DNA of 25,260 nucleotides, taken from IMG/VR virus record IMGVR_UViG_3300023296_001674; one strand, 5' to 3'. The DNA is from a virus. Below, one piece after another: positions 3,108 to 20,787 of the stretch (position 1 is its first letter; every line of letters starts with the position of its first letter). The notes under the pieces were generated by a model. It did no database searches. It was not told the DNA's origin and saw nothing but the letters and a program-made list of their open reading frames with translations. A program made the position numbers and the translations under genes.

Positions 3108-3394
3108 TTGAGCAAACGAGATCGAATACAGTGTTAACGCGGAACGAGACTGCTAGGAACACTTAAAATATACCTAATATGGGCGCGTTGTGGATGGATT
3201 TCCTTTTGTGGAATGATAAAAGCAATGGTAGGAAGCAAAGCGACCTACTAGGGAAAGCGTTATATGCTTTCCTGATAAGTTATTTTGTATGGAAGTGCCA
3301 TTAAAGCAGAACAATTGGTTTGGCGACCAAGCACCTTCGGGGCATAAAATCTGCTACTACTATACTATTTTAATCATAACTAAGTGTCACAAAA

Positions 3395-3464
3395 TATTGT
3401 ATGGTGTAGTGGTAACACGCTGCCTTTATCGGCGGAGCCGTGGGTTCGAGTCCTACTATGATAT
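3395..3464 (+). tRNA. tRNA-like gene: 7/7 acceptor stem (two G-U), D-arm gtgt/acac, GGTTCGAGTCC T-arm, but only a 6-nt anticodon loop and no encoded CCA
   Basis: Manual cloverleaf; acceptor tattgta pairs with tatgata. Confidence 0.35.
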
Positions 3465-3822
3465 TTGGATTACGTTCAGTGTGCACACCGAACGCCACAA
3501 ATTATCTGTTATTATCGCGATAGTGATAGATAATGTTGGGTCACTTAGTTATGATTAAAGTTTTTAGGGTGTTCGTCTAGTGGATTAGGACGCGCCGCCT
3601 TGGGTAGTTGGAGTTCGATTCTCCTTAGCAACGGTTACGTAAATCCGCACGGTGAGACATTGGTTCGAATCCAATACATGTTAAAATAACGATTTCACAT
3701 GAGATGTATAGTTTTAATGGATAAATCAGGCATGAGCCTTGTGCGGCAAGATAGTGGGTTCGATTCCCCTTGCGTTGAATGTGAAATGATGCTATATTGG
3801 TTTTTTAATATAGGAGATAATA

Positions 3823-4936: not shown

Positions 4937-5011
4937 GCTCGATAGATAACTGGGGTTACGACGGCTTTAACATAGCTGTTGTGGTGGGTTCGATTCCCAC
5001 ATCGAGTACCA
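4937..5011 (+). tRNA. tRNA paralogous to the 4767 gene; loop ttaacat gives an apparent AAC anticodon (Val-like, A34)
   Basis: Acceptor gctcgat/atcgagt, perfect 5-bp anticodon stem cggct/agctg. Confidence 0.6.
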
Positions 5012-5094
5012 ATATTTTTGATACACATAATGGTTTAGTGTATTGATAAACCGGCTGTGGGTGAAGCGGTATAACAAATGTCTACCCCCAATAT

Positions 5095-5169
5095 GGTCGT
5101 GTAGCTCAAAGGCAGAGCATTCGCTTTACATGCGAAAGGTTGTGATATCGTAATTCACCACGACTACCA
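5095..5169 (+). tRNA. tRNA, anticodon UAC-like, non-canonical T-loop atcgtaa
   Basis: Acceptor ggtcgtg/cacgact, anticodon stem ttcgc/gcgaa, loop tttacat. Confidence 0.6.
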
Positions 5170-6089: not shown

Positions 6090-6854
6090 TTAATCATTGT
6101 GTAGTTGCGTTTTTTCATATTCATCGACATCAAGTTTTAATTGTTTATATGTGATAGATGATGTATTACGTTTTTTTACATTATCTTTCTGAAGCATTAT
6201 TTCACAATTTAATGGATGTGTAATATAATATGGATCATACTTGTTAACAATTGATTCATTTATAGATATTTTATGATCCCTCGCTACACCGTTTGAATTT
6301 TTCTTTGGGACATACCAACCATGTTTTTTTATTAAATCTAAATTGAGTAGATTGGGATAATCATTGACATCAAATTTGAAATAATATGGACGTTTCGTAG
6401 TTTGAAGTTCTTTTGCTGTTCTACCATATTGTTCAACGCAGCATTGACATTTTGATATATACCGATCTTTGGCGGTGAAAAGTGTAATACAGGTGGAGCA
6501 AGTTCTAAACCATACCATGGAATATTCACCATCGATATATTTTTTTAGTTTATCCCATCTTTTTGGATAATGACCAATATCTTTTATGATTTTGATATGA
6601 CTTTTACTCATTCGTTCTTTAGTTTCATTGCTATGTTTGCGACGGCTATTATTATATTTGGCGGCACAAGATTGATTACAATATTTCTTTTTTATAAGTG
6701 CTTCATCGTATGACCATGATTTGCCGCATTGGTTGCATGTTTTTGGATTTTTATTATATTCGGCAATGCGATGGTTTTTTTGATTTATTTGCGTTTTTCG
6801 TGAAGCTATAAATCCTAATTTACCAGCTTCAGATTTGGACAATTTACATGTCAT
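6090..6854 (-). CDS. HNH-family homing endonuclease (254 aa), one of four paralogs; N-terminal CxxC / C-N-Q-SCAAKYNNSRRK zinc-binding-like motif, C-terminal RDHxxS...HPxNC core
   Basis: SD aagga upstream of the ATG at 6854; conserved C-terminal block shared with ORFs 8344, 11473 and 14042. Confidence 0.75.
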   Translation of the reverse strand: MTCKLSKSEAGKLGFIASRKTQINQKNHRIAEYNKNPKTCNQCGKSWSYDEALIKKKYCNQSCAAKYNNSRRKHSNETKERMSKSHIKIIKDIGHYPKRWDKLKKYIDGEYSMVWFRTCSTCITLFTAKDRYISKCQCCVEQYGRTAKELQTTKRPYYFKFDVNDYPNLLNLDLIKKHGWYVPKKNSNGVARDHKISINESIVNKYDPYYITHPLNCEIMLQKDNVKKRNTSSITYKQLKLDVDEYEKTQLHND

Positions 6855-7457: not shown

Positions 7458-7527
7458 GCAGGGTTAATGGACTGTGTGTAAGTTTTGTGATTAAAAGGGA
7501 TGGTGCAAATCCAATTCCCCTGCGCCA
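7458..7527 (+). tRNA. degenerate tRNA-like gene (70 nt), weak T-arm
   Basis: Acceptor gcagggt/cccctgc 6/7 with encoded CCA; body related to the fragment at 9244. Confidence 0.3.
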
Positions 7528-7531
7528 AATT

Positions 7532-7604
7532 TGTTTGATCGTCTTTGGAATACAAGATACCGTTGTCGAAGGCGGAGACGTTGGTTCGAATCCAACTTGA
7601 ACAC
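7532..7604 (+). tRNA. tRNA without encoded CCA; ambiguous anticodon loop (canonical numbering gives GUC; only a 6- or 8-nt loop pairs well)
   Basis: Acceptor tgtttga/ttgaaca 7/7, T-arm gttggTTCGAATccaac. Confidence 0.5.
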
Positions 7605-7694
7605 TTATTGTTAGTAATGATTTTATGTACATAAATGATTTGCTAGGCGAAAGCCAATAGTTTGCTGGTTCTATTTCTTAAAAATCCTCTTATG

Positions 7695-8286: not shown

Positions 8287-8362
8287 TTCAGATGACCAAG
8301 CAAGTGAACGGGACCGCCTGTTAAGCGGATATTGCAGGGAGCGTTACCCTGATCTGGAGCCA
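8287..8362 (+). tRNA. tRNA-Asn, anticodon GUU, non-canonical T-loop agcgtta
   Basis: Acceptor ttcagat/atctgga, loop ctgttaa, T-stem caggg/ccctg. Confidence 0.7.
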
Positions 8363-8991
8363 ATAACTTTATATTTTTTGTCCCATTCATTTATTCGATG
8401 GTATAAATCATATAATGATAAACTTGAATGACGATTTTTAGATGAATTTTCTGGCTGTGGCATTATCTTGCAGTTCGCTGGATGTGATATATGATTTGGG
8501 TCTATTTTGTTTACAAATCCATCATGTACACTATACATGTGATCTCTTGTTAATCCGTTTTTATTTTTGGTACTATGATACATGCCCTGTTGATGTATCA
8601 TTATAAAATCAAATTCTTCTGGAAATGTTTGAAATGAAAATATAAATTTACATTGTTCTTTATATTTTATCTTCTCAATCATGTATTCTTGTGGTGTCAC
8701 CCTCATGGCATTTGTGCAAGTAACTGCACAACTTCTTCCGCAATAATATTCACGAGTTCCGGTTATAGGGCTAAATTTATTATTACATGTTGGATTTTTA
8801 CACTCGATTAGTCGTTTTTGATATTTTGTTAAATTTTTTACCGATATTTCTTTTTTGGTGAATATGCAACTACATGTAATATGTGATATTTTACCGTTGC
8901 TTTTGCCATGCATACGTGAATGACCATTCAATGCCATTAAGGATTTAAATTGATTATCGCATATATTACATGTATAAATATCTTTAGACAT
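8344..8991 (-). CDS. HNH-family homing endonuclease paralog (216 aa from the MSKDIYTCNIC start)
   Basis: The ORF track extends further, but GGAGG SD precedes the ATG at 8991; same conserved C-terminal core. Confidence 0.7.
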   Translation of the reverse strand: MSKDIYTCNICDNQFKSLMALNGHSRMHGKSNGKISHITCSCIFTKKEISVKNLTKYQKRLIECKNPTCNNKFSPITGTREYYCGRSCAVTCTNAMRVTPQEYMIEKIKYKEQCKFIFSFQTFPEEFDFIMIHQQGMYHSTKNKNGLTRDHMYSVHDGFVNKIDPNHISHPANCKIMPQPENSSKNRHSSLSLYDLYHRINEWDKKYKVIGSRSG

Positions 8992-9080
8992 TATCAACCT
9001 CCATTGGTTGTTATAGTTTAGAAGATATGGGGAATTCCAGTTCTCTATATCTTCGTTAGTATTTATCAATAACATATTAT

Positions 9081-9166
9081 TCGGATATAGGAGAATTGGT
9101 AGACCCAGAAGATTGTTAATCTTCCGCAGCAATGCATTCCAGGTTCGAGTCCTGGTATCCGAGCCA
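9081..9166 (+). tRNA. type-II-like tRNA (86 nt, Leu-like D-arm GAATTGGTAGA, variable-arm hairpin) whose anticodon loop reads GUU
   Basis: Acceptor tcggata/tatccga perfect, anticodon stem gaaga/tcttc, loop ttgttaa, T-arm ccaggTTCGAGTcctgg. Confidence 0.65.
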
Positions 9167-9167
9167 A

Positions 9168-9240
9168 TAACACCGTAGCGTAGAAAATAGTTACTTCGTT
9201 TCACTCACGACTGGAATGGGTTCGATTCCCATGCCCTGCG
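9168..9240 (+). tRNA. tRNA-like gene with D, anticodon and T arms but no matching 5' acceptor strand; no CCA
   Basis: T-arm atgggTTCGATTcccat; its 3' strand gccctgc pairs only with the downstream fragment at 9244. Confidence 0.35.
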
Positions 9241-9243
9241 TAA

Positions 9244-9272
9244 GCAGGGTTTAGTGTAATGGTAGCACAGTA
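9244..9272 (+). pseudogene. tRNA 5' fragment (acceptor gcagggt plus D-arm), complementary to the 3' end of the upstream tRNA-like gene
   Basis: gcagggt TT AGTG TAATGGTA GCAC, then no anticodon or T arm. Confidence 0.35.
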
Positions 9273-9353
9273 TATCTCTATTTTCGTTTTTTACTCGGTG
9301 TTGTTATTAATAAATAGAATTATACAAATTATTAGATTGGAGTTGTTATTTAA

Positions 9354-9677
9354 ATGAGTGACGAACGACGAAATAGTTCCAGATTTTCGACTGGGCGTGT
9401 ATCATATTTACGATTGAACGATTATTATTTTCCATTGGTTGATATTAGTGATGATGGATTTTTTGCGGAATGCAGTGATGGTTCATTGAGTATTGGCGAT
9501 GTTGTTGATATTGAAATACATATCAGTGATCGACATGGAATAGCTACATTTAACACTGAAACAGAGATACTGCGTGTTGGCGGTAGATTTATTGCAGGAA
9601 AATGGGATTTAGAATTAAACAGGGCTACGGATTGCGTTAAAACTTATTTTGACAATAGGCACGCACAAGTAGCATAA
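9354..9677 (+). CDS. hypothetical protein (107 aa)
   Basis: SD ggag upstream of ATG. Confidence 0.55.
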   Translation: MSDERRNSSRFSTGRVSYLRLNDYYFPLVDISDDGFFAECSDGSLSIGDVVDIEIHISDRHGIATFNTETEILRVGGRFIAGKWDLELNRATDCVKTYFDNRHAQVA

Positions 9678-9684
9678 TACAAAT

Positions 9685-9759
<75 letters not shown>

Positions 9760-9849
9760 TATCGATGCGTAGTGTTAAGTTACTTCGATTTTTTTTAAAT
9801 AAAAAACCCAAAAACTCTTAATATGTCTTTTTCACGATGTTGATTTCAT

Positions 9850-9923
9850 AGGGGTATCGTATAGTGGTAATACGGTGGATTCCAAACTCACAGACCGGGG
9901 TTCGATCCCTCGTTCCCCTGCCA
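9850..9923 (+). tRNA. tRNA-Trp, anticodon CCA
   Basis: D-stem gtat/atac, loop ttccaaa, T-arm cggggTTCGATCcctcg. Confidence 0.75.
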
Positions 9924-9939
9924 ATTTAACGAGAATAAC

Positions 9940-11166
9940 ATGCATTTTATAATAAGTATCGATAGTGTATCAACGGATAGTCGGCATTATGACTGTGCCA
10001 AAAGTGATGAAAACTGTTGGCTTGATATATACGATGGCAATATCTATAACGATACTATATTAACCAATGCATTTTCATATAAAAACAAAACGATAAAACT
10101 TGATAAAGGTTGGCATACATTAGACCGCGACAAAGATGTTGTATGGTTTAAGGGTTATTCAACAGAAGCAAGATTGATTGATAGGGTTGAAGCCCGTAAT
10201 TATTCATCAATGGATGGAAATTATTGTTTTATTGTGTTTGATAAAACGACAGAATGTATTAACATATATCATGATACCAATCGTGGATTTGGTATATATT
10301 ATACAGATTCTATTATAACCAATTTATATACAATCAAAACATGCGTTAAGTTTGACGGGTGTATCATGGTAGATCACAATGACGAAATAATTGTTTCATC
10401 GTTACAGACAACGTTCACATTGCCTGATATAATTAAAGACAAATCTATTGACGATATGGCTGCTATTATAGCGCCTATGATGATTAAGAAAATCGAAGGA
10501 TTTATGAAATATAATAATGTGGTTGATTTAGAAATACAAGCAACTGGCGGTTTAGATACATTAACGGTGCGTGCATTATTAGATATCTGCGCGATTGATT
10601 ATAAATTGATTGATATAAAACCATTTAAAGATGGATGCAACTGGACTAATGATACAAATTCAATGATGGATATATTATCAAAATATCATTGGGGATTTCA
10701 GCAATGCAATTATTATGATGATATTACATATGTTGCCACTGGTTTTTGGGGCGATGAGTTATTGATGCGCAATCCGCTTCAAGTTCATTGGATATTGAAT
10801 CATTATGATATTGATTTATCGAATGAATATACAAAGCACCCTGATTCATATATGCTAGGATATTTTCAACAAGCGTATAAAGAGAAACTTATAGAACGCG
10901 ATAAAATATTTTCCAATGAAAATGAATTATATCAATATTCATTAGATTATGCACTTGATGAACCACAGATAACGCATGTTGATAATGTTATAATGTTTTC
11001 ACCATTTAAGGGTATTGACATATATATGAAAACACTCAATATGACGAATGAGGCAATATTAGAACAGGTTATAAATGGTGCACTGCAAAAGAAAATTATA
11101 TACGATATTAATCCTAAGTTATTGGATTGCTTAGAAAAATATAAAAATAGAAGAATACCAGTGTAA
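9940..11166 (+). CDS. asparagine-synthetase-like protein (408 aa): AsnB-type block GNYCFIVFD...IYHDTNRGFGIYY and PP-loop-like TGGLDT, but no N-terminal catalytic Cys
   Basis: Motif recall of AsnB (MFAFALYD...GRDHLGIIPLYMGY; SGGLDS). Confidence 0.5.
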   Translation: MHFIISIDSVSTDSRHYDCAKSDENCWLDIYDGNIYNDTILTNAFSYKNKTIKLDKGWHTLDRDKDVVWFKGYSTEARLIDRVEARNYSSMDGNYCFIVFDKTTECINIYHDTNRGFGIYYTDSIITNLYTIKTCVKFDGCIMVDHNDEIIVSSLQTTFTLPDIIKDKSIDDMAAIIAPMMIKKIEGFMKYNNVVDLEIQATGGLDTLTVRALLDICAIDYKLIDIKPFKDGCNWTNDTNSMMDILSKYHWGFQQCNYYDDITYVATGFWGDELLMRNPLQVHWILNHYDIDLSNEYTKHPDSYMLGYFQQAYKEKLIERDKIFSNENELYQYSLDYALDEPQITHVDNVIMFSPFKGIDIYMKTLNMTNEAILEQVINGALQKKIIYDINPKLLDCLEKYKNRRIPV

Positions 11167-11228: not shown

Positions 11229-11498
11229 ATGGATAATAGTACATTAATAGCGTTAGGAAGTTTGTTGTTTGCCATGATTGGTGGATTTTGGGGTGTCATA
11301 ACATACATCCTTGGAATCATCAAGGTGGAAAACGTTGAACGTCGTGGTGTCCAAGAAAAATTATATATGCGCGATGATGTAGCCAAAGATGTAATGAACG
11401 AAAGTTTAACAGAAGTAAAAAGTACCATCCGTGATACGAATGATAGACTCATACGTGTAGAAACAATATTATATGAAAGAACTGATAGAACAAAATAA
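11229..11498 (+). CDS. small membrane protein (89 aa), one N-terminal TM helix
   Basis: Hydrophobic segment LIALGSLLFAMIGGFWGVITYILGII. Confidence 0.45.
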   Translation: MDNSTLIALGSLLFAMIGGFWGVITYILGIIKVENVERRGVQEKLYMRDDVAKDVMNESLTEVKSTIRDTNDRLIRVETILYERTDRTK

Positions 11499-12108
11499 AA
11501 TATGGTTTTTAAGCAAAACGGTAATACGTTGTATAAATAGTTATATGGTTGATTTAAGAAAGAGTTTGCAAACACCAAAAGTTTGCTGTATTGAATGTAA
11601 AACAATATTTAGAACTAATCATTTTGTTAGACACTCGAAGAAGCGATGTATTGAGTGGAAAAAGAAAAACGGCATGATCCCAAAAGGGAAGCGTGGCGGT
11701 TGGAATAAAGGATTAACGAAAATGACTAGTTCGTTGGTCAAAAAAGGAACCGATACTTATCGTCGCCGTTATGAAAATGGTGAATATACACGACGCACAC
11801 AAACCGATGATATAAAGAAACAATATTGGCAAGATTGTAAATTTAAATTCAATGTTTATAATTATCCTGAAATATTTGACTTAAATTTACTCGATAAATT
11901 TGGGTGGTATCATCCTGTAGAAAATCCAAGTGGCGTAAGTAGAGATCATATTATTTCTGTATCATATGGATGGAAAAATGGTATAGATTCGAATATTATT
12001 AATCATATAGCCAATTGTAAATTGATGATTCATTTAGAAAATAACAAAAAAAATAATCGATCTGATTTATTATTAGAAGAATTATTACAAAAAATACACT
12101 CTATGTAG
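11473..12108 (+). CDS. HNH-family homing endonuclease paralog (211 aa)
   Basis: SGVSRDHIISVSYGWKNGIDSNIINHIANCKLM core; N-terminal CxxC pairs. Confidence 0.7.
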   Translation: MKELIEQNKIWFLSKTVIRCINSYMVDLRKSLQTPKVCCIECKTIFRTNHFVRHSKKRCIEWKKKNGMIPKGKRGGWNKGLTKMTSSLVKKGTDTYRRRYENGEYTRRTQTDDIKKQYWQDCKFKFNVYNYPEIFDLNLLDKFGWYHPVENPSGVSRDHIISVSYGWKNGIDSNIINHIANCKLMIHLENNKKNNRSDLLLEELLQKIHSM

Positions 12109-12851: not shown

Positions 12852-12938
12852 AGAAGTACTTTGTATTGGTGAACTCAGCAGTCTCCAAAACTGTGTCGCA
12901 TTTGTGACTGGTAGGTTCGAATCCTACTACTTCTGCCA
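12852..12938 (+). tRNA. type-II-like tRNA (87 nt, variable-arm hairpin) whose anticodon loop reads CCA (Trp-like)
   Basis: Acceptor agaagta/tacttct perfect, anticodon stem gcagt/actgt, loop ctccaaa, T-arm gtaggTTCGAATcctac. Confidence 0.65.
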
Positions 12939-13329: not shown

Positions 13330-13400
13330 ACCTCCGCTGATGGTTCAGACATAAGCTTGCGAAGCTTGTTGGGAAAGTTCGATTCTTTTCGGGGGTTCCA
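13330..13400 (+). tRNA. compact tRNA (71 nt), anticodon loop ttgcgaa (GCG, Arg-like)
   Basis: Acceptor acctccg/cgggggt, T-arm gaaagTTCGATTctttt. Confidence 0.5.
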
Positions 13401-13441
13401 ATATTGTTATAGCTATGGAAATTAGTTCCTTCTTATCCCAA

Positions 13442-13509
13442 CCTGTAGGTCGTAGGTTCGAATCCTGCTCCTCGCGCCAATTATGCGGGGATAGCTCAGT
13501 GGTAGAGCA
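13442..13509 (+). tRNA. split/permuted-looking tRNA locus: 3' portion (13442-13479, anticodon 3' stem through encoded CCA), then attat, then 5' portion (13485-13509, acceptor plus D-arm GCGGGGATAGCTCAGTGGTAGAGCA)
   Basis: The 3' acceptor tcctcgc pairs 7/7 with the downstream gcgggga; anticodon 3' stem cctgt pairs with the downstream actgg. Confidence 0.4.
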
Positions 13510-13562
13510 ACTGGCAATTTTACTGGTTCCAATTATTATAGCAATATTTTATTAAATAGGTC

Positions 13563-13765: not shown

Positions 13766-13843
13766 TGACTAGTAGCTCAGTGGTTTAGAGCGGGGAGTTC
13801 TAAACTCTCGACAGCGTTGGTTCAAATCCAACCTGGTCAACCA
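13766..13843 (+). tRNA. tRNA with anticodon CUA (amber-suppressor-like); U1-A72 acceptor
   Basis: D-arm GCTCAGTGGTTTAGAGC, anticodon stem gggag/ctctc, loop ttctaaa, T-arm gttggTTCAAATccaac, CCA encoded. Confidence 0.6.
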
Positions 13844-13850
13844 ATACTAA

Positions 13851-14022
13851 GCGGGTATCGTATAATGGTATTATCGCAGCCTTCCATGTGATATGTTTAA
13901 CATATCTCAGGTTGAGCCATTTATTGGCTCCTTGAAGGTCGAGGGTTCAGACCCCATCCGGTTTAAGCCCGGTAGACCAACTTAAGCTGATGACGGGAGT
14001 TCGATTCTCCCTACCCGCTCCA
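13851..14022 (+). tRNA. tRNA-Gly(UCC)-like gene interrupted by a structured insertion of about 98 nt in the anticodon loop (about 13887-13984)
   Basis: 5' part gcgggta TC GTATAATGGTATTAT... and 3' part ...GACGGGAGTTCGATTCTCCCTACCCGCTCCA match the Gly tRNAs at 9685 and 12508; the 7/7 acceptor pairing exists only across the insertion. Confidence 0.5.
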
Positions 14023-14041
14023 ATATTTGATAAATAGTTAT

Positions 14042-14818
14042 ATGAAATGTAAACAATGTAAAATATCATTTACCCCTATCCCACAAGCAAAAAAAGGTAT
14101 ATTTTGTTCGCACGATTGTCATAATGTATACCAGCGCGTAAATACTCGTGAGCAATACTTAAAAAATCCCAAACGGTGTATTTTTTGTGATGATATAATA
14201 TCATATAGAGAAAATATAAAAGTGGCGAAGTTTTGCAATAGGTCTTGCGGGGCAAAATATAATAATAAAAGACGTACAGAATGCGGATACACCCCAAGTC
14301 ATAAAAAATGGTCTAGTGGTAAAATATCTGCTAAAATGTCATCAAAAATGCGCCGTGCGGATATCAAATCAAGTGTCGTGTTTGGTGATTTTACTATAAT
14401 AACATTTGCTATATGCAATATTACGAATAAACCATATGTTCTACAAACACCGCATGGTGGTATAAAGCAAATATCACCATATATTAAATCATCTAAACAG
14501 ATATATTATGAGCAAGCCAAATTTCGATTTAATGTATATGACTATCCAGATATATTTGATATAACACTTTTAGAAAAATATGGATGGTATACATGTCCCG
14601 GCAAGAAACGAAAAAATCAAAAAAAGAATATAAATGGTGTAAGTAGAGATCATATAATATCTATCAATGATGGATTTAAGAATGGGTATGATCCATATAT
14701 TTTAGCACATCCTGCTAATTGTCGATTGATTAAACAAGTGGATAATGTTAAAAAATTAGATAAATCTAATATGTCATATGACGAGTTATTGATTAACATA
14801 AAACAATGGAATGGATAG
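14042..14818 (+). CDS. HNH-family homing endonuclease paralog (MKCKQCK start; the ORF track's TTG at 14027 overlaps the tRNA), TAG stop
   Basis: CNRSCGAKYNNKRR motif and NGVSRDHIISINDGFKNGYDPYILAHPANCRL core. Confidence 0.7.
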   Translation: MKCKQCKISFTPIPQAKKGIFCSHDCHNVYQRVNTREQYLKNPKRCIFCDDIISYRENIKVAKFCNRSCGAKYNNKRRTECGYTPSHKKWSSGKISAKMSSKMRRADIKSSVVFGDFTIITFAICNITNKPYVLQTPHGGIKQISPYIKSSKQIYYEQAKFRFNVYDYPDIFDITLLEKYGWYTCPGKKRKNQKKNINGVSRDHIISINDGFKNGYDPYILAHPANCRLIKQVDNVKKLDKSNMSYDELLINIKQWNG

Positions 14819-20328: not shown

Positions 20329-20436
20329 TTCCAAGTAGCTCAGATGGTAGAGCGTCTGACTGTGGAACAGATGAGCCTAAAGCTTTGAAGTTCAAATTTA
20401 ATCAGAATGTCGGCGGTTCGATCCCGTCCTTGGAAG
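20329..20436 (+). tRNA. tRNA-His-like (anticodon GUG, second copy) with a structured insertion of about 40 nt in the variable position; no CCA
   Basis: Acceptor ttccaag/cttggaa perfect, D-arm GCTCAGATGGTAGAGC, loop ctgtgga, T-arm ggcggTTCGATCccgtc. Confidence 0.5.
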
Positions 20437-20575
20437 CAAATAAAAGTTTTAGGTCGTTCAATAAGCCATGTTTAGCGGCATGGTTAGGACAAGCGGGTAT
20501 AACCGCTAAATGGTATGCTGCAATCGGGGTTAACACTTATTGCAACGAGGTGAAAATCCACCCATAGAAATCAAT

Positions 20576-20667
20576 GCCTCGGTAGCTCAGAAAAGCAACG
20601 TAAGTTGTAGTGTAGTAGCAGGTGACTGAACCTCACCGTGTCGGTAGTTCGAATCTATCCTGGGGCA
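20576..20667 (+). tRNA. tRNA-like gene, 92 nt: canonical 3' two-thirds (anticodon stem ggtga/tcacc, loop ctgaacc = GAA) with about 17 extra nt between D and anticodon arms; no CCA
   Basis: Acceptor gcctcgg/ctggggc, T-arm ggtagTTCGAATctatc. Confidence 0.45.
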
Positions 20668-20711
20668 CAAATAATACAAAGGAAGATAACAATATCAAGT
20701 GAATAACATAT

Positions 20712-20787
20712 AGTTCCGTAGCTCAGTGGATAGAGCGCAACTTTGCGAAAGTTGAAGTCGGTGGTTCGATCCCACTCGGGACTGCCA
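20712..20787 (+). tRNA. tRNA, anticodon loop ttgcgaa (GCG, Arg-like, second copy)
   Basis: Acceptor agttccg/cgggact, D-arm GCTCAGTGGATAGAGC, anticodon stem caact/agttg, T-arm ggtggTTCGATCccact. Confidence 0.75.

What the first reader, a model, noticed from the sequence alone, without database searches (positions are those of the whole stretch)
9168..9272. Second locus where a tRNA-like 3' end is followed by its complementary 5' acceptor plus D-arm
At 9168-9240 there is a tRNA-like gene with D, anticodon and T arms (atgggTTCGATTcccat) whose 3' acceptor strand gccctgc has no upstream partner. The partner gcagggt (7/7 with one G-U) lies 4 nt downstream at 9244 and begins a tRNA 5' fragment (TT AGTG TAATGGTA GCAC). 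The junction ccctgcg-taa-gcaggg is a perfect inverted repeat. The fragment resembles the degenerate gene at 7458 (gcagggttaatgg...cccctgcgcca). Together with the 13442 locus this suggests recurrent tRNA-tRNA recombination in the array, plausibly driven by the neighbouring homing endonucleases, or a class of permuted tRNA genes.
Basis: seen in the sequence. Interest (0 to 1): 0.6.

Follow-up and report, generated by a model that had tools for sequence, protein, structure and literature searches.

The report
Phage Y RNA that mimics tRNA
The "back-to-front tRNA" is a gene for a YrlA-type Y RNA, a known small RNA with a tRNA-like head on a stalk that binds the Ro60 protein. It is one of several in the tRNA array of a roughly 570-kb phage, so it is an ordinary new member of a known family, not a recombination scar or a permuted tRNA.

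Summary
A T arm (9216-9232) runs straight into a 7-bp hairpin, gccctgc-GTAA-gcagggt (9233-9250), followed by a D arm (9253-9268). The 13442 locus has the same layout.

Both cores sit on a long 5'/3' stalk (9166-9305 and 13400-13548) that carries non-tRNA motifs: GCGUAG, GUUACUUC and CG-U-rich-AC. This is the architecture of YrlA, the tRNA-mimicking Y RNA bound by Ro60/Rsr.

I built a covariance model only from 41 phage elements in IMG/VR that lie within 1 kb of a Ro60 (TROVE) gene. It scores both window loci full-length at about 77 bits (E about 5e-17). The best tRNA junction scores 31 bits or less. Elements upstream of the Ro60 gene of phage CcrColossus, a phage listed in the literature as carrying Y RNA-like RNAs, score 84-87 bits.

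The source phage has its own Ro60 gene just upstream of the window. That gene is split by a homing-endonuclease-like ORF.

The recombination and true permuted-tRNA readings are not supported. Verdict: new member of a known kind, modest interest.

The atypical points are:
- the distance to Ro60 (10-14 kb);
- an encoded GCCA in the second locus;
- the failure of Rfam's YrlA model to detect either locus.

The parts
9164..9305 (+). Whole YrlA-like Y RNA gene 'w1' (the finding). It starts at the CCA of the preceding tRNA (9081-9166).
   Evidence: Model R1 hit at 9164-9297, 76.7 bits, E 5e-17, model positions 1-138. The MFE fold closes at 9166-9175/9296-9305, z = -3.4 to -3.6.
9166..9175 (+). Outer stalk helix, 5' strand (AAUAACACCG). 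It pairs with 9296-9305.
   Evidence: 10 bp including one G-U.
9177..9183 (+). AGCGUAG, the position of the Ro60-binding motif (published form GNCGAAN0-1G; Ro60-linked phage relatives have GN[C/U]G[U/A]AG).
   Evidence: Aligned to the conserved GugGuGuAG of R1. Same motif in Ro60-linked elements. Motif definition from PMC4201824.
9183..9190 (+). Inner stalk helix, 5' strand (GAAAAUAG). It pairs with 9278-9285 (CUAUUUUC).
   Evidence: This helix has compensatory changes at all 6 modelled pairs across 69 family members.
9190..9197 (+). GUUACUUC, a family-invariant motif. It contains the YUAY that opens the V loop in YrlA.
   Evidence: GTTACTT is invariant in alignment A2, because the scan pattern fixed it. 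It is found in the window independently of that scan. YUAY from PMC4201824.
9196..9210 (+). V hairpin UCGU-UUCACUC-ACGA.
   Evidence: Equivalent short hairpins seen by eye in relatives (UCAU/AUGA, UCC/GGA). Not in the R1 structure.
9216..9232 (+). T arm AUGGG-UUCGAUU-CCCAU.
9233..9250 (+). Acceptor-like hairpin GCCCUGC-GUAA-GCAGGGU (7 bp, GNRA tetraloop). This is the inverted repeat of the finding.
   Evidence: 19 of 59 relatives also close this stem with a tetraloop.
9253..9268 (+). D arm A-GUGU-AAUGGUA-GCAC with the G18 G19 equivalents.
9278..9305 (+). 3' strand of the stalk: CUAUUUUC (inner helix), CG-UUUUUUAC (conserved CGyuUGUUcC-type internal loop), CGGUGUUGUU (outer helix).
   Evidence: aligned to R1 positions 120-138.
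13399..13548 (+). Second YrlA-like gene 'w2'. Stalk 13400-13412/13536-13548, GUUCCUUC 13425-13432, T arm 13452-13468, acceptor hairpin 13469-13491 with encoded discriminator G plus CCA (13476-13479) in its 9-nt loop, D arm 13493-13508.
   Evidence: R1 76.8 bits, E 5e-17, full length. Rfam YrlA core 32.4 bits, E 1e-5. Folds.
9753..9842 (+). Stalk-only Y RNA-like element (GAUGCGUAG-UGUUAAG-UUACUUCGA ... CUUAAUA ... CACGAU) with no tRNA-like head. It lies between tRNA-Gly and tRNA-Trp and again starts at CCA-AUA.
   Evidence: R1 26.5 bits, E 5e-5, with the 56 head positions deleted. Fold z = -2.1. Weaker evidence than for w1 and w2.

Best explanation
Window 9164-9305 is a gene for a YrlA-class Y RNA, and 13399-13548 is a second one. 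It is about 140 nt long.

Its 5' and 3' ends pair into a two-part stalk. The internal loop of the stalk carries the Ro60-binding-type motif (AGCGUAG opposite CG-UUUUUUAC). The distal end of the RNA folds into a tRNA look-alike made of a V hairpin, a T arm, a closed acceptor-like stem and a D arm. The stalk replaces the anticodon arm. That is why the DNA reads as a tRNA 3' end followed by its own 5' end.

Shown here:
- the architecture;
- full-length membership in a covarying family of phage RNAs that lie next to Ro60 genes;
- a Ro60 gene in this phage.

Inferred:
- The RNA is made from the tRNA-array transcript. Its 5' end would be set by 3' processing of the upstream tRNA, since the two full elements and the weaker stalk-only one (26.5 bits) all begin CCA-AUA.
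- The phage Ro60 (or the host Rsr) binds the stalk.
- By analogy with bacterial Rsr-YrlA-PNPase and with Thermus phage phiLo, the RNA gates or tethers Ro60 to an exoribonuclease for structured-RNA decay or surveillance during infection.
- w1, capped by a GUAA tetraloop, stays in one piece.
- w2 has a 7-bp stem and an encoded GCCA. It is probably cut by RNase P at 13484/13485 and trimmed to CCA, as shown for M. smegmatis YrlA.
For: - Fold: stalk plus T arm, acceptor hairpin and D arm; z = -3.4 and -3.0.
- The Rfam YrlA model aligns both loci to its tRNA-like core, positions 24-84.
- An IMG/VR pattern scan found 59 elements of this layout. 46 have a TROVE ORF in the fetched locus, and 42 of those are within 1 kb on the same strand. 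TROVE/Ro60 was confirmed by Pfam for two of the query proteins.
- RNAalifold on a MAFFT alignment of 41 Ro60-linked elements, window excluded: 22 pairs, 19 with compensatory changes.
- Model R1, built from that alignment, scores w2 at 76.8 bits and w1 at 76.7 bits, both full length (E about 5e-17). The next window hit scores 31 bits.
- Elements upstream of the Ro60 gene of CcrColossus, a phage the literature lists as carrying Y RNA-like RNAs, score 84-87 bits.
- On 69 members, 95.5% of cells pair, against about 44% when partners are slid. The covariation score is 0.895, against 0.10-0.18.
- A Ro60 gene lies 9.8 kb upstream of w1 on the same strand.
Against: - Neither locus reaches Rfam's YrlA gathering score: 15.4 and 32.4 bits against 69. 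The CcrColossus elements also fail it (30-42 bits).
- The published motif GNCGAAN0-1G is not matched exactly. w1 has AGCGUAG; w2 has AGCUAUG, which is weaker.
- Both loci lie 10-14 kb from Ro60, whereas published YrlA genes lie within 4 kb.
- The phage Ro60 gene is split by an inserted ORF and carries an in-frame TAA, so it may not be functional.
- There are no expression, end-mapping or binding data.
- R1 E-values are rough because calibration was short. The training set was found with a pattern containing GTTACTT and the T loop, which both... only w1 matches exactly.
Confidence: 0.87

Rival explanations
1. Recombination scar or decayed tandem tRNA duplicate. Two copies of one tRNA stood head to tail. 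The 5' part of the first and the 3' part of the second decayed, or were deleted by endonuclease-triggered repair, leaving a non-functional junction whose acceptor strands happen to be complementary.
For: - Tandem tRNA genes with complementary neighbouring acceptor strands do produce the same local pattern (false positives L049, L091, L103, L077).
- The window contains many degenerate tRNA-like pieces: 50 T-arm-like motifs against 27 ARAGORN tRNAs.
- Four endonuclease-like paralogues lie nearby (phrog_23051, with weak endonuclease VII/HNH matches for two).
- The acceptor strands of w1 equal those of the 7458 element.
- This route may well be the ancient evolutionary origin of YrlA.
Against: - The flanks are not decayed tRNA. 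They form 18-23 bp of stalk and carry the non-tRNA motifs of Ro60-linked Y RNAs.
- The full-length model score is 77 bits, against 31 or less for real tRNA junctions.
- No resident tRNA is a close match to either half: best 42/55 and 47/57 identities, at the generic tRNA level.
Confidence: 0.04
2. A true permuted tRNA gene, as in Cyanidioschyzon merolae. The transcript is circularised or ligated at its ends and opened at the acceptor loop to give a working, aminoacylated tRNA.
For: - The order 3' half, linker, 5' half.
- w2 encodes the discriminator plus CCA.
- The phage carries much translation machinery: IF3, L12, aaRS-like genes.
Against: - There is no anticodon stem-loop to reconstitute. 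The ends form a long stalk with large internal loops, and no bulge-helix-bulge motif is evident.
- The only 7-nt-loop hairpin (9196-9210) sits on one side of the T arm, in the V position, and varies freely in relatives.
- ARAGORN and the Rfam tRNA model do not call it.
Confidence: 0.02
3. The inverted repeat is simply an intrinsic terminator or processing hairpin after a degenerate tRNA, and the downstream D-arm piece is untranscribed.
For: A GC-rich 7-bp stem with a stable GUAA loop is followed by UUU.
Against: - The terminator scan does not flag it; the tail is UUUAGUGU.
- The downstream D arm and 3' stalk are conserved and covary with the upstream strand across 69 relatives. That requires them to be in the same RNA.
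Confidence: 0.02
4. A Y RNA-derived tRNA mimic that now works without Ro60. It could act as a decoy or competitor for host tRNA-binding enzymes or anti-phage tRNA-targeting nucleases, or (for w2) as a CCA-ended two-piece RNA that is charged or used by tRNA-handling enzymes.
For: - The distance of 10-14 kb from Ro60 is atypical.
- Ro60 is split and carries an in-frame stop.
- The loci are embedded among tRNAs.
- w2 has a diverged Ro60-site motif but an intact 7-bp acceptor stem with GCCA.
- Only stalk-only Y RNA-like elements were found next to Ro60.
Against: - w1 keeps the stalk motifs on both strands in register with Ro60-linked relatives. There would be no reason to conserve them without Ro60.
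- About one third of Ro60-linked relatives also sit within 300 nt of tRNA genes, so tRNA-array context is not special.
Confidence: 0.05

Closest known systems
YrlA (Y RNA-like A) of Salmonella Typhimurium and Mycobacterium smegmatis; Rfam RF02553; Chen et al. 2014, PMC4201824
   Same: - The order is 5' stalk strand with the Ro60 motif, YUAY, V hairpin, T arm, closed acceptor-like stem, D arm, 3' stalk strand.
- The Rfam model aligns both loci to its core.
- w2 has a 7-bp acceptor stem plus CCA, like the M. smegmatis RNA that is cut by RNase P and receives CCA.
   Different: - Scores are far below Rfam's gathering threshold.
- The motif is AGCGUAG, not GNCGAAN0-1G.
- The 3' stalk strand is also conserved in the phage group.
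- The genes are 10-14 kb from Ro60, not within 4 kb.
- In w2 the CCA is encoded in the DNA rather than added.
Y RNA-like arrays of phages next to Ro60, e.g. Caulobacter phage CcrColossus (NC_019406, upstream of gp139) and many IMG/VR contigs
   Same: - Same covariance model, with comparable scores: CcrColossus 84-87 bits, the window 77 bits.
- Several copies per genome.
- Frequent proximity to tRNA genes.
- Some copies have CCA-containing acceptor loops.
   Different: In those phages the copies form a tight cluster immediately 5' of Ro60. Here the tRNA-like copies are dispersed inside a tRNA array interrupted by endonuclease-like ORFs, and only stalk-only Y RNA-like elements were found close to Ro60.
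Yrl1/Yrl2 of Thermus phage phiLo (PMC12135203)
   Same: Phage-encoded Y RNA-like RNAs with a 5'-3' stem and a CGAA-type bulge. They are bound by the phage Ro60 and assemble with host PNPase, which is the mechanism assumed here.
   Different: They were defined by the stem-bulge-stem only. No tRNA-like head was found in the passages I read, and no sequence comparison was made here.
Permuted tRNA genes of Cyanidioschyzon merolae (recalled from memory: Soma et al. 2007)
   Same: The 3' half is encoded upstream of the 5' half, and the acceptor strands are joined by a short linker that must be removed.
   Different: Those genes yield complete tRNAs with an anticodon arm, through a circular intermediate. 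Here the anticodon arm is replaced by a protein-binding stalk.
Two-piece (permuted) tmRNA of alpha-proteobacteria and cyanobacteria (recalled from memory: Keiler et al. 2000)
   Same: A circularly permuted tRNA-like domain in which the CCA-bearing strand is encoded upstream of the 5' acceptor strand. The intervening loop is excised. w2 resembles this.
   Different: There is no tag reading frame and there are no pseudoknots. ARAGORN finds no tmRNA. The Rfam tmRNA_permuted model gives only a 15-bit hit elsewhere in the window.

Membership tests
YrlA-class Y RNA | tRNA-like domain in the order T arm, closed acceptor-like stem-loop, D arm, with T-loop UUCRA and D-loop GG | tested here: met
   Sequence, folds, and Rfam YrlA core alignment to positions 24-84.
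YrlA-class Y RNA | The 5' and 3' ends pair into a stalk that takes the place of the anticodon arm | tested here: met
   w1 has 10 + 8 bp and w2 has 13 + 10 bp. The inner helix covaries at 6 of 6 pairs in the family.
YrlA-class Y RNA | GNCGAAN0-1G Ro60-binding motif on the 5' strand (PMC4201824) | tested here: inconclusive
   There is no exact match. w1 has AGCGUAG and w2 has AGCUAUG at the aligned position. Ro60-linked phage relatives show GGCGUAG, GGUGUAG, UGCGUAG and GCCGAAG there, so w1 fits the phage variant of the motif.
YrlA-class Y RNA | Conserved YUAY at the start of the V loop | tested here: met
   w1 has GUUACUUC (UUAC). w2 has GUUCCUUC (UUCC, one change)..
YrlA-class Y RNA | Encoded within about 4 kb of a Ro60/TROVE gene on the same strand | tested here: not met
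   A Ro60 gene exists on the same strand, but it ends 9.8 kb before w1 and 14 kb before w2. No TROVE ORF was found in the window or for 7.8 kb beyond it.
YrlA-class Y RNA | Score at or above the Rfam RF02553 gathering threshold (69 bits) | tested here: not met
   15.4 and 32.4 bits. The elements upstream of the CcrColossus Ro60 gene also score only 30-42 bits, so the threshold is not informative for phage members.
YrlA-class Y RNA | Significant full-length match to a model built from Ro60-adjacent elements | tested here: met
   R1, trained without the window, gives 76.7 and 76.8 bits over positions 1-138. These fall within the family range of 54-127 bits.
YrlA-class Y RNA | Bound by Ro60/Rsr; modified by TruB and DusA; in some species cut by RNase P | not testable with these tools
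   Needs co-immunoprecipitation, modification mapping and an RNase P assay.
Permuted tRNA gene (C. merolae type) | The two halves together give a complete cloverleaf including an anticodon stem-loop | tested here: not met
   No anticodon arm can be formed from the ends. Not called by ARAGORN or by the Rfam tRNA model.
Two-piece tmRNA | Tag-peptide reading frame and pseudoknots next to the permuted tRNA-like domain | tested here: not met
   ARAGORN reports no tmRNA. No Rfam tmRNA hit at either locus.
Intrinsic terminator | GC-rich hairpin followed directly by a run of U | tested here: not met
   The consensus scan of 8950-9950 does not report 9233-9250.

The most novel reading that the evidence does not exclude
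The tRNA-like Y RNAs of this huge phage have been moved out of the Ro60 locus into the tRNA array, so that they are made and processed as if they were tRNAs. At least w2, with its 7-bp acceptor stem and DNA-encoded GCCA, would mature by RNase P cleavage and 3' trimming into a two-piece, CCA-ended tRNA mimic. That mimic would act on tRNA-handling enzymes or host anti-phage tRNA nucleases, partly or wholly independently of the phage's split Ro60.
Probability: 0.15. Interest if true: 0.55.

Novelty: new member of a known kind. Interest (0 to 1): 0.3.

Why it matters
It removes a false lead: there is no evidence here for recombination hotspots or permuted tRNA genes in phage tRNA arrays.

It also shows that standard annotation misses this class in phages:
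- Rfam's YrlA threshold fails for both loci and for the CcrColossus elements.
- One CcrColossus copy is annotated as tRNA-Gln.
- ARAGORN calls overlap 5 of 59 relatives.

A quick scan shows that Ro60-linked tRNA-mimic RNAs are common and multi-copy in uncultured phages.

This phage offers natural variants for asking what the tRNA-like head is for. It has a tetraloop-closed copy, a copy with CCA encoded in the acceptor loop, stalk-only candidates, and a Ro60 gene split by a homing-endonuclease-like ORF.

Tried and rejected
Searches that led nowhere:
- Megablast of the locus against GenBank phages found no match.
- Relatives of the neighbouring ORFs in IMG/VR: none found.
- Homologues of the 408-aa neighbour exist only on short contigs at about 30% identity, so no orthologous locus could be compared.
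The last window ORF is not on record. The rest of the roughly 570-kb genome could therefore not be searched for more copies or a second Ro60.
- Rfam on the Ro60 region gave nothing, neither an intron nor a Y RNA.

Ideas considered and dropped:
- The 408-aa ORF after the locus as Ro60 or RtcB: no Pfam or PHROG hit.
- The 7458 element as a donor: it shares only the acceptor strands.
- The hairpin as a terminator.
- Two reviews on bacterial Y RNAs are not held in the library.

Weak extra hits of the model (20596-20761 at 31 bits, 7536-7678 at 23 bits) were inspected but not resolved.

Full report
**Context.** The window is a phage tRNA array. ARAGORN finds 27 tRNA genes, all on the + strand. Small ORFs and four paralogous endonuclease-like ORFs (phrog_23051, with weak endonuclease VII/HNH matches for two) lie between them. 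Proteins of the window occur on contigs of up to 570,750 bp. Nearby genes encode IF3, ribosomal protein L12, ClpX and aaRS-like proteins. The source is therefore an uncultured huge phage. It has no close relative in GenBank phages or IMG/VR at this locus.

**Observation.**
- T arm AUGGG-UUCGAUU-CCCAU, 9216-9232.
- GCCCUGC, 9233-9239.
- A four-base loop GUAA.
- GCAGGGU starting at 9244.
- UU, then a D arm, 9253-9268.

The locus at 13442 has the same layout, but its acceptor loop reads G-CCA-AUUAU. The window has 50 T-arm-like motifs. Shuffling the sequence after each gives 0.049 cases per window of a perfect 7-bp hairpin plus a correctly placed D arm. Two are observed (P = 0.001). A hairpin alone would not be remarkable (0.69 expected, 3 observed).

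The MFE fold of 9164-9312 (z = -3.6) encloses the three tRNA-like hairpins in a long two-part stalk made from the flanks:
- 9166-9175 pairs with 9296-9305.
- 9183-9190 pairs with 9278-9285.

The second locus behaves the same way: 13400-13412 pairs with 13536-13548, plus an inner helix. The supposed anticodon arm is a short hairpin in the variable-arm position.

A stalk carrying T arm, closed acceptor stem and D arm is the published architecture of YrlA. YrlA is the tRNA-mimicking Y RNA bound by the bacterial Ro60 orthologue Rsr (Chen et al. 2014, PMC4201824). Rfam's YrlA model aligns both loci to its tRNA-like core (positions 24-84), but weakly: 15.4 bits (E 0.87) and 32.4 bits (E 1e-5), against a gathering score of 69.

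**Independent test with relatives.**
- A pattern scan of IMG/VR for a T loop followed at the right distance by a D loop returned several elements with the same permuted layout that ARAGORN does not call as tRNAs.
- Two of the long ORFs beside them are TROVE/Ro60 proteins by Pfam, and a third combines DUF2828 and DUF7788.
- These elements share with w1 a non-tRNA motif, GUUACUU(C), about 18 nt before the T arm.
- Among the fetched loci, 59 elements have the T arm, hairpin and D arm layout. 46 have a TROVE ORF in the fetched stretch, and 42 of those are within 1 kb on the same strand.
- A MAFFT alignment of 41 such Ro60-linked elements, with the window excluded, gives an RNAalifold consensus of 22 pairs: stalk, T stem, acceptor stem and D stem. 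19 of them have compensatory changes.

**Model scores.** The covariance model R1 built from that alignment was run over the whole window without filters.
- 13399-13542 scores 76.8 bits and 9164-9297 scores 76.7 bits. Both cover model positions 1-138, with E about 5e-17 (rough, because calibration was short).
- The next hit scores 31 bits, and tRNA-tRNA junctions score 25 bits or less.
- The w1 alignment places GUAGCGUAG on the conserved GugGuGuAG, matches GUUACUUC exactly, and places CGUUUUUUAC on CGcuUuUUcC. The non-tRNA parts therefore match too.
- In Caulobacter phage CcrColossus, which the literature lists among phages with Ro60 and Y RNA-like RNAs (PMC12135203, citing Chen 2014), R1 finds an array just upstream of the Ro60 gene gp139. 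The scores are 87, 86, 84, 46 and 42 bits.
- Rfam's model gives those CcrColossus elements only 30-42 bits. Failing Rfam's threshold is therefore typical of phage members.
- On 69 aligned members, 95.5% of cells form pairs, against about 44% with slid partners. The covariation score is 0.895, against 0.10-0.18. That alignment was fitted to the model. The MAFFT-based result is the unbiased one.

**Ro60 in this phage.** No TROVE ORF lies in the window or in the 7.8 kb after it. Fetching 10 kb upstream of the first window ORF (L241; window position = L241 position - 9447) shows one:
- L241 6037-6789 encodes Ro60 residues 1-227 (36% identity to an IMG/VR phage Ro60, E 5e-45).
- L241 6864-7817 is an inserted ORF with its own ribosome-binding site. 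It matches PHROG 'homing endonuclease' (1.5e-15) and DUF7487.
- L241 7832-8281 resumes at Ro60 residue 215 and runs to the vWA motif DQSGSM.
- A single in-frame TAA follows, and the same frame continues to the Ro60 C-terminus (8330-8827).

The gene ends 9.8 kb before w1 and 14 kb before w2, on the same strand. About 400 nt upstream of it lies a stalk-only Y RNA-like element, L241 5572-5640 (26.8 bits). A similar one lies in the window at 9753-9836 (26.5 bits).

**Mechanism.**
- Shown: the fold, family membership, covariation, and a Ro60 gene in the same genome.
- Inferred from the family literature (PMC4201824, PMC12135203): Ro60 binds the stalk at the conserved internal loop. The RNA gates or tethers Ro60 to an exoribonuclease such as host PNPase. 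The tRNA-like head is handled by tRNA enzymes.
- Inferred from the sequence: the two full elements and the stalk-only candidate all begin at the CCA of the upstream tRNA (CCA-AUA...). This suggests co-transcription with the tRNAs and a 5' end set by tRNA 3' processing.
- w1 is closed by a GNRA tetraloop, like 19 of 59 relatives, and should stay in one piece.
- w2 has a 7-bp acceptor stem followed by an encoded G-CCA. Four of 59 relatives also begin this loop with CCA or NCCA. This matches the M. smegmatis YrlA that is cut by RNase P and carries CCA.

**Rivals.**
- Decay of tandem tRNA genes explains complementary acceptor strands. It does not explain the stalk, the Ro60-type motifs or the 77-bit full-length match. 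No resident tRNA, including the 7458 element, is a close source of either half.
- A true permuted tRNA is excluded because there is no anticodon arm.
- The terminator scan does not flag the hairpin.
- A Ro60-independent role cannot be excluded, given the distance from Ro60 and the split state of that gene. Conservation of the stalk motifs in w1 argues against it.

**Verdict.** This is a new member of a known kind: YrlA-type Y RNA genes of a huge phage. The atypical features are dispersal in the tRNA array, an encoded CCA in one copy, and a Ro60 gene split by a homing-endonuclease-like ORF. About one third of relatives also sit within 300 nt of a tRNA gene, and multi-copy arrays are common, so the context is not exceptional. 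Interest is modest.

Noticed in passing
L241 6037-8827 (window -3410 to -620, just upstream of the window): The phage Ro60/TROVE gene is in pieces. The N-terminal 250 aa come first, then an inserted 317-aa homing-endonuclease-like ORF (DUF7487, phrog_3339) with its own RBS, then the rest of Ro60 restarting behind a near-identical RBS (GGAGACCAAACC). It looks like a gene split by a free-standing endonuclease rather than an intron; Rfam finds no intron.
   Followed up: partly
L241 8282-8284: A single in-frame TAA interrupts the Ro60 vWA domain directly after DQSGSM. The same frame continues with sequence that aligns to Ro60. It could be a nonsense mutation, an assembly error or programmed read-through.
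   Followed up: no
window 3394-3465 and 13766-13843: Two unusual tRNAs. One has a 6-nt anticodon loop UUUAUC, which ARAGORN labels 'Stop|Ile'. The other has anticodon CUA (an amber suppressor, labelled Pyl). Together with the in-frame TAA in Ro60, this raises the possibility of stop-codon suppression in this phage.
   Followed up: partly
window 9753-9842 and L241 5572-5640: Stalk-only Y RNA-like elements with the GCGUAG and (G)UUACUUCGA motifs, an inner and an outer helix, and no tRNA-like head. They resemble a YrlB-type partner. R1 scores are 26.5 and 26.8 bits.
   Followed up: partly
L241 about 4990-5100: Another 5' Y RNA motif (GCUGCGUAG-UUAUUG-GUUACUUCGA), followed by a hairpin CAUGG-UGGAAAU-CCAUG. 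R1 does not detect it at E<0.01, and the fold is not significant (z = -1.5).
   Followed up: partly
window 20596-20761: R1 hit of 31 bits: GUAGUGUAG-UAGCAG-GUGACU plus a T arm (GUAGUUCGAAUCUAUC), then 57 nt, then the D arm of tRNA-Arg (20712-20787). It may be a degenerate or variant Y RNA-like element. Region 20330-20440 also looks like a tRNA with a long insertion.
   Followed up: no
window 7536-7678: R1 hit of 23 bits containing a canonical GUCGAAG motif directly before a T arm (GUUGG-UUCGAAU-CCAAC), with no clear acceptor hairpin or D arm.
   Followed up: no
window 7458-7527: A degenerate tRNA-like element, not called by ARAGORN. Its acceptor strands (GCAGGGU / CCCUGC-G-CCA) are the same as those of the w1 hairpin. 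The rest is no more similar to w1 than unrelated tRNAs are.
   Followed up: yes
window 9081-9166: The tRNA just before w1 is 86 nt long with a long variable arm (class II shape), but it has anticodon GUU (Asn). That combination is unusual.
   Followed up: no
window 13851-14019 and 12852-12934: The Rfam tRNA model matches a 169-nt stretch (38.9 bits), which suggests a tRNA with a roughly 95-nt insertion. A tRNA-Sec-like hit of 36.9 bits (below threshold) lies at 12852-12934.
   Followed up: no
window 6090-6854(-), 8344-8994(-), 11473-12108(+), 14027-14818(+): Four paralogous ORFs of phrog_23051 share a C-terminal ...RDH...HP(A/L)NC... motif. Two have weak endonuclease VII/HNH matches. They are probably homing endonucleases scattered through the tRNA array.
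   Followed up: partly
L243 3131-3198 (Caulobacter phage CcrColossus, NC_019406 109217-109284): The GenBank feature 'tRNA-Gln' lies inside a YrlA-like element (R1 86 bits, 3121-3288), so it is probably a mis-annotation. Two annotated 'terminators' also fall in the Y RNA array.
   Followed up: partly
IMG/VR loci L123-L240: Ro60-linked YrlA-like RNAs are abundant and often in arrays of 2-4 copies in uncultured phages. All members tested against Rfam RF02553 score 30-42 bits against the gathering score of 69, so the curated model under-detects phage members.
   Followed up: partly
L078 308-1651(-): In one IMG/VR phage, a CCA-adding enzyme gene lies on the same strand about 930 bp downstream of Ro60, and two YrlA-like RNAs lie upstream of Ro60. 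This fits CCA metabolism of these RNAs.
   Followed up: no
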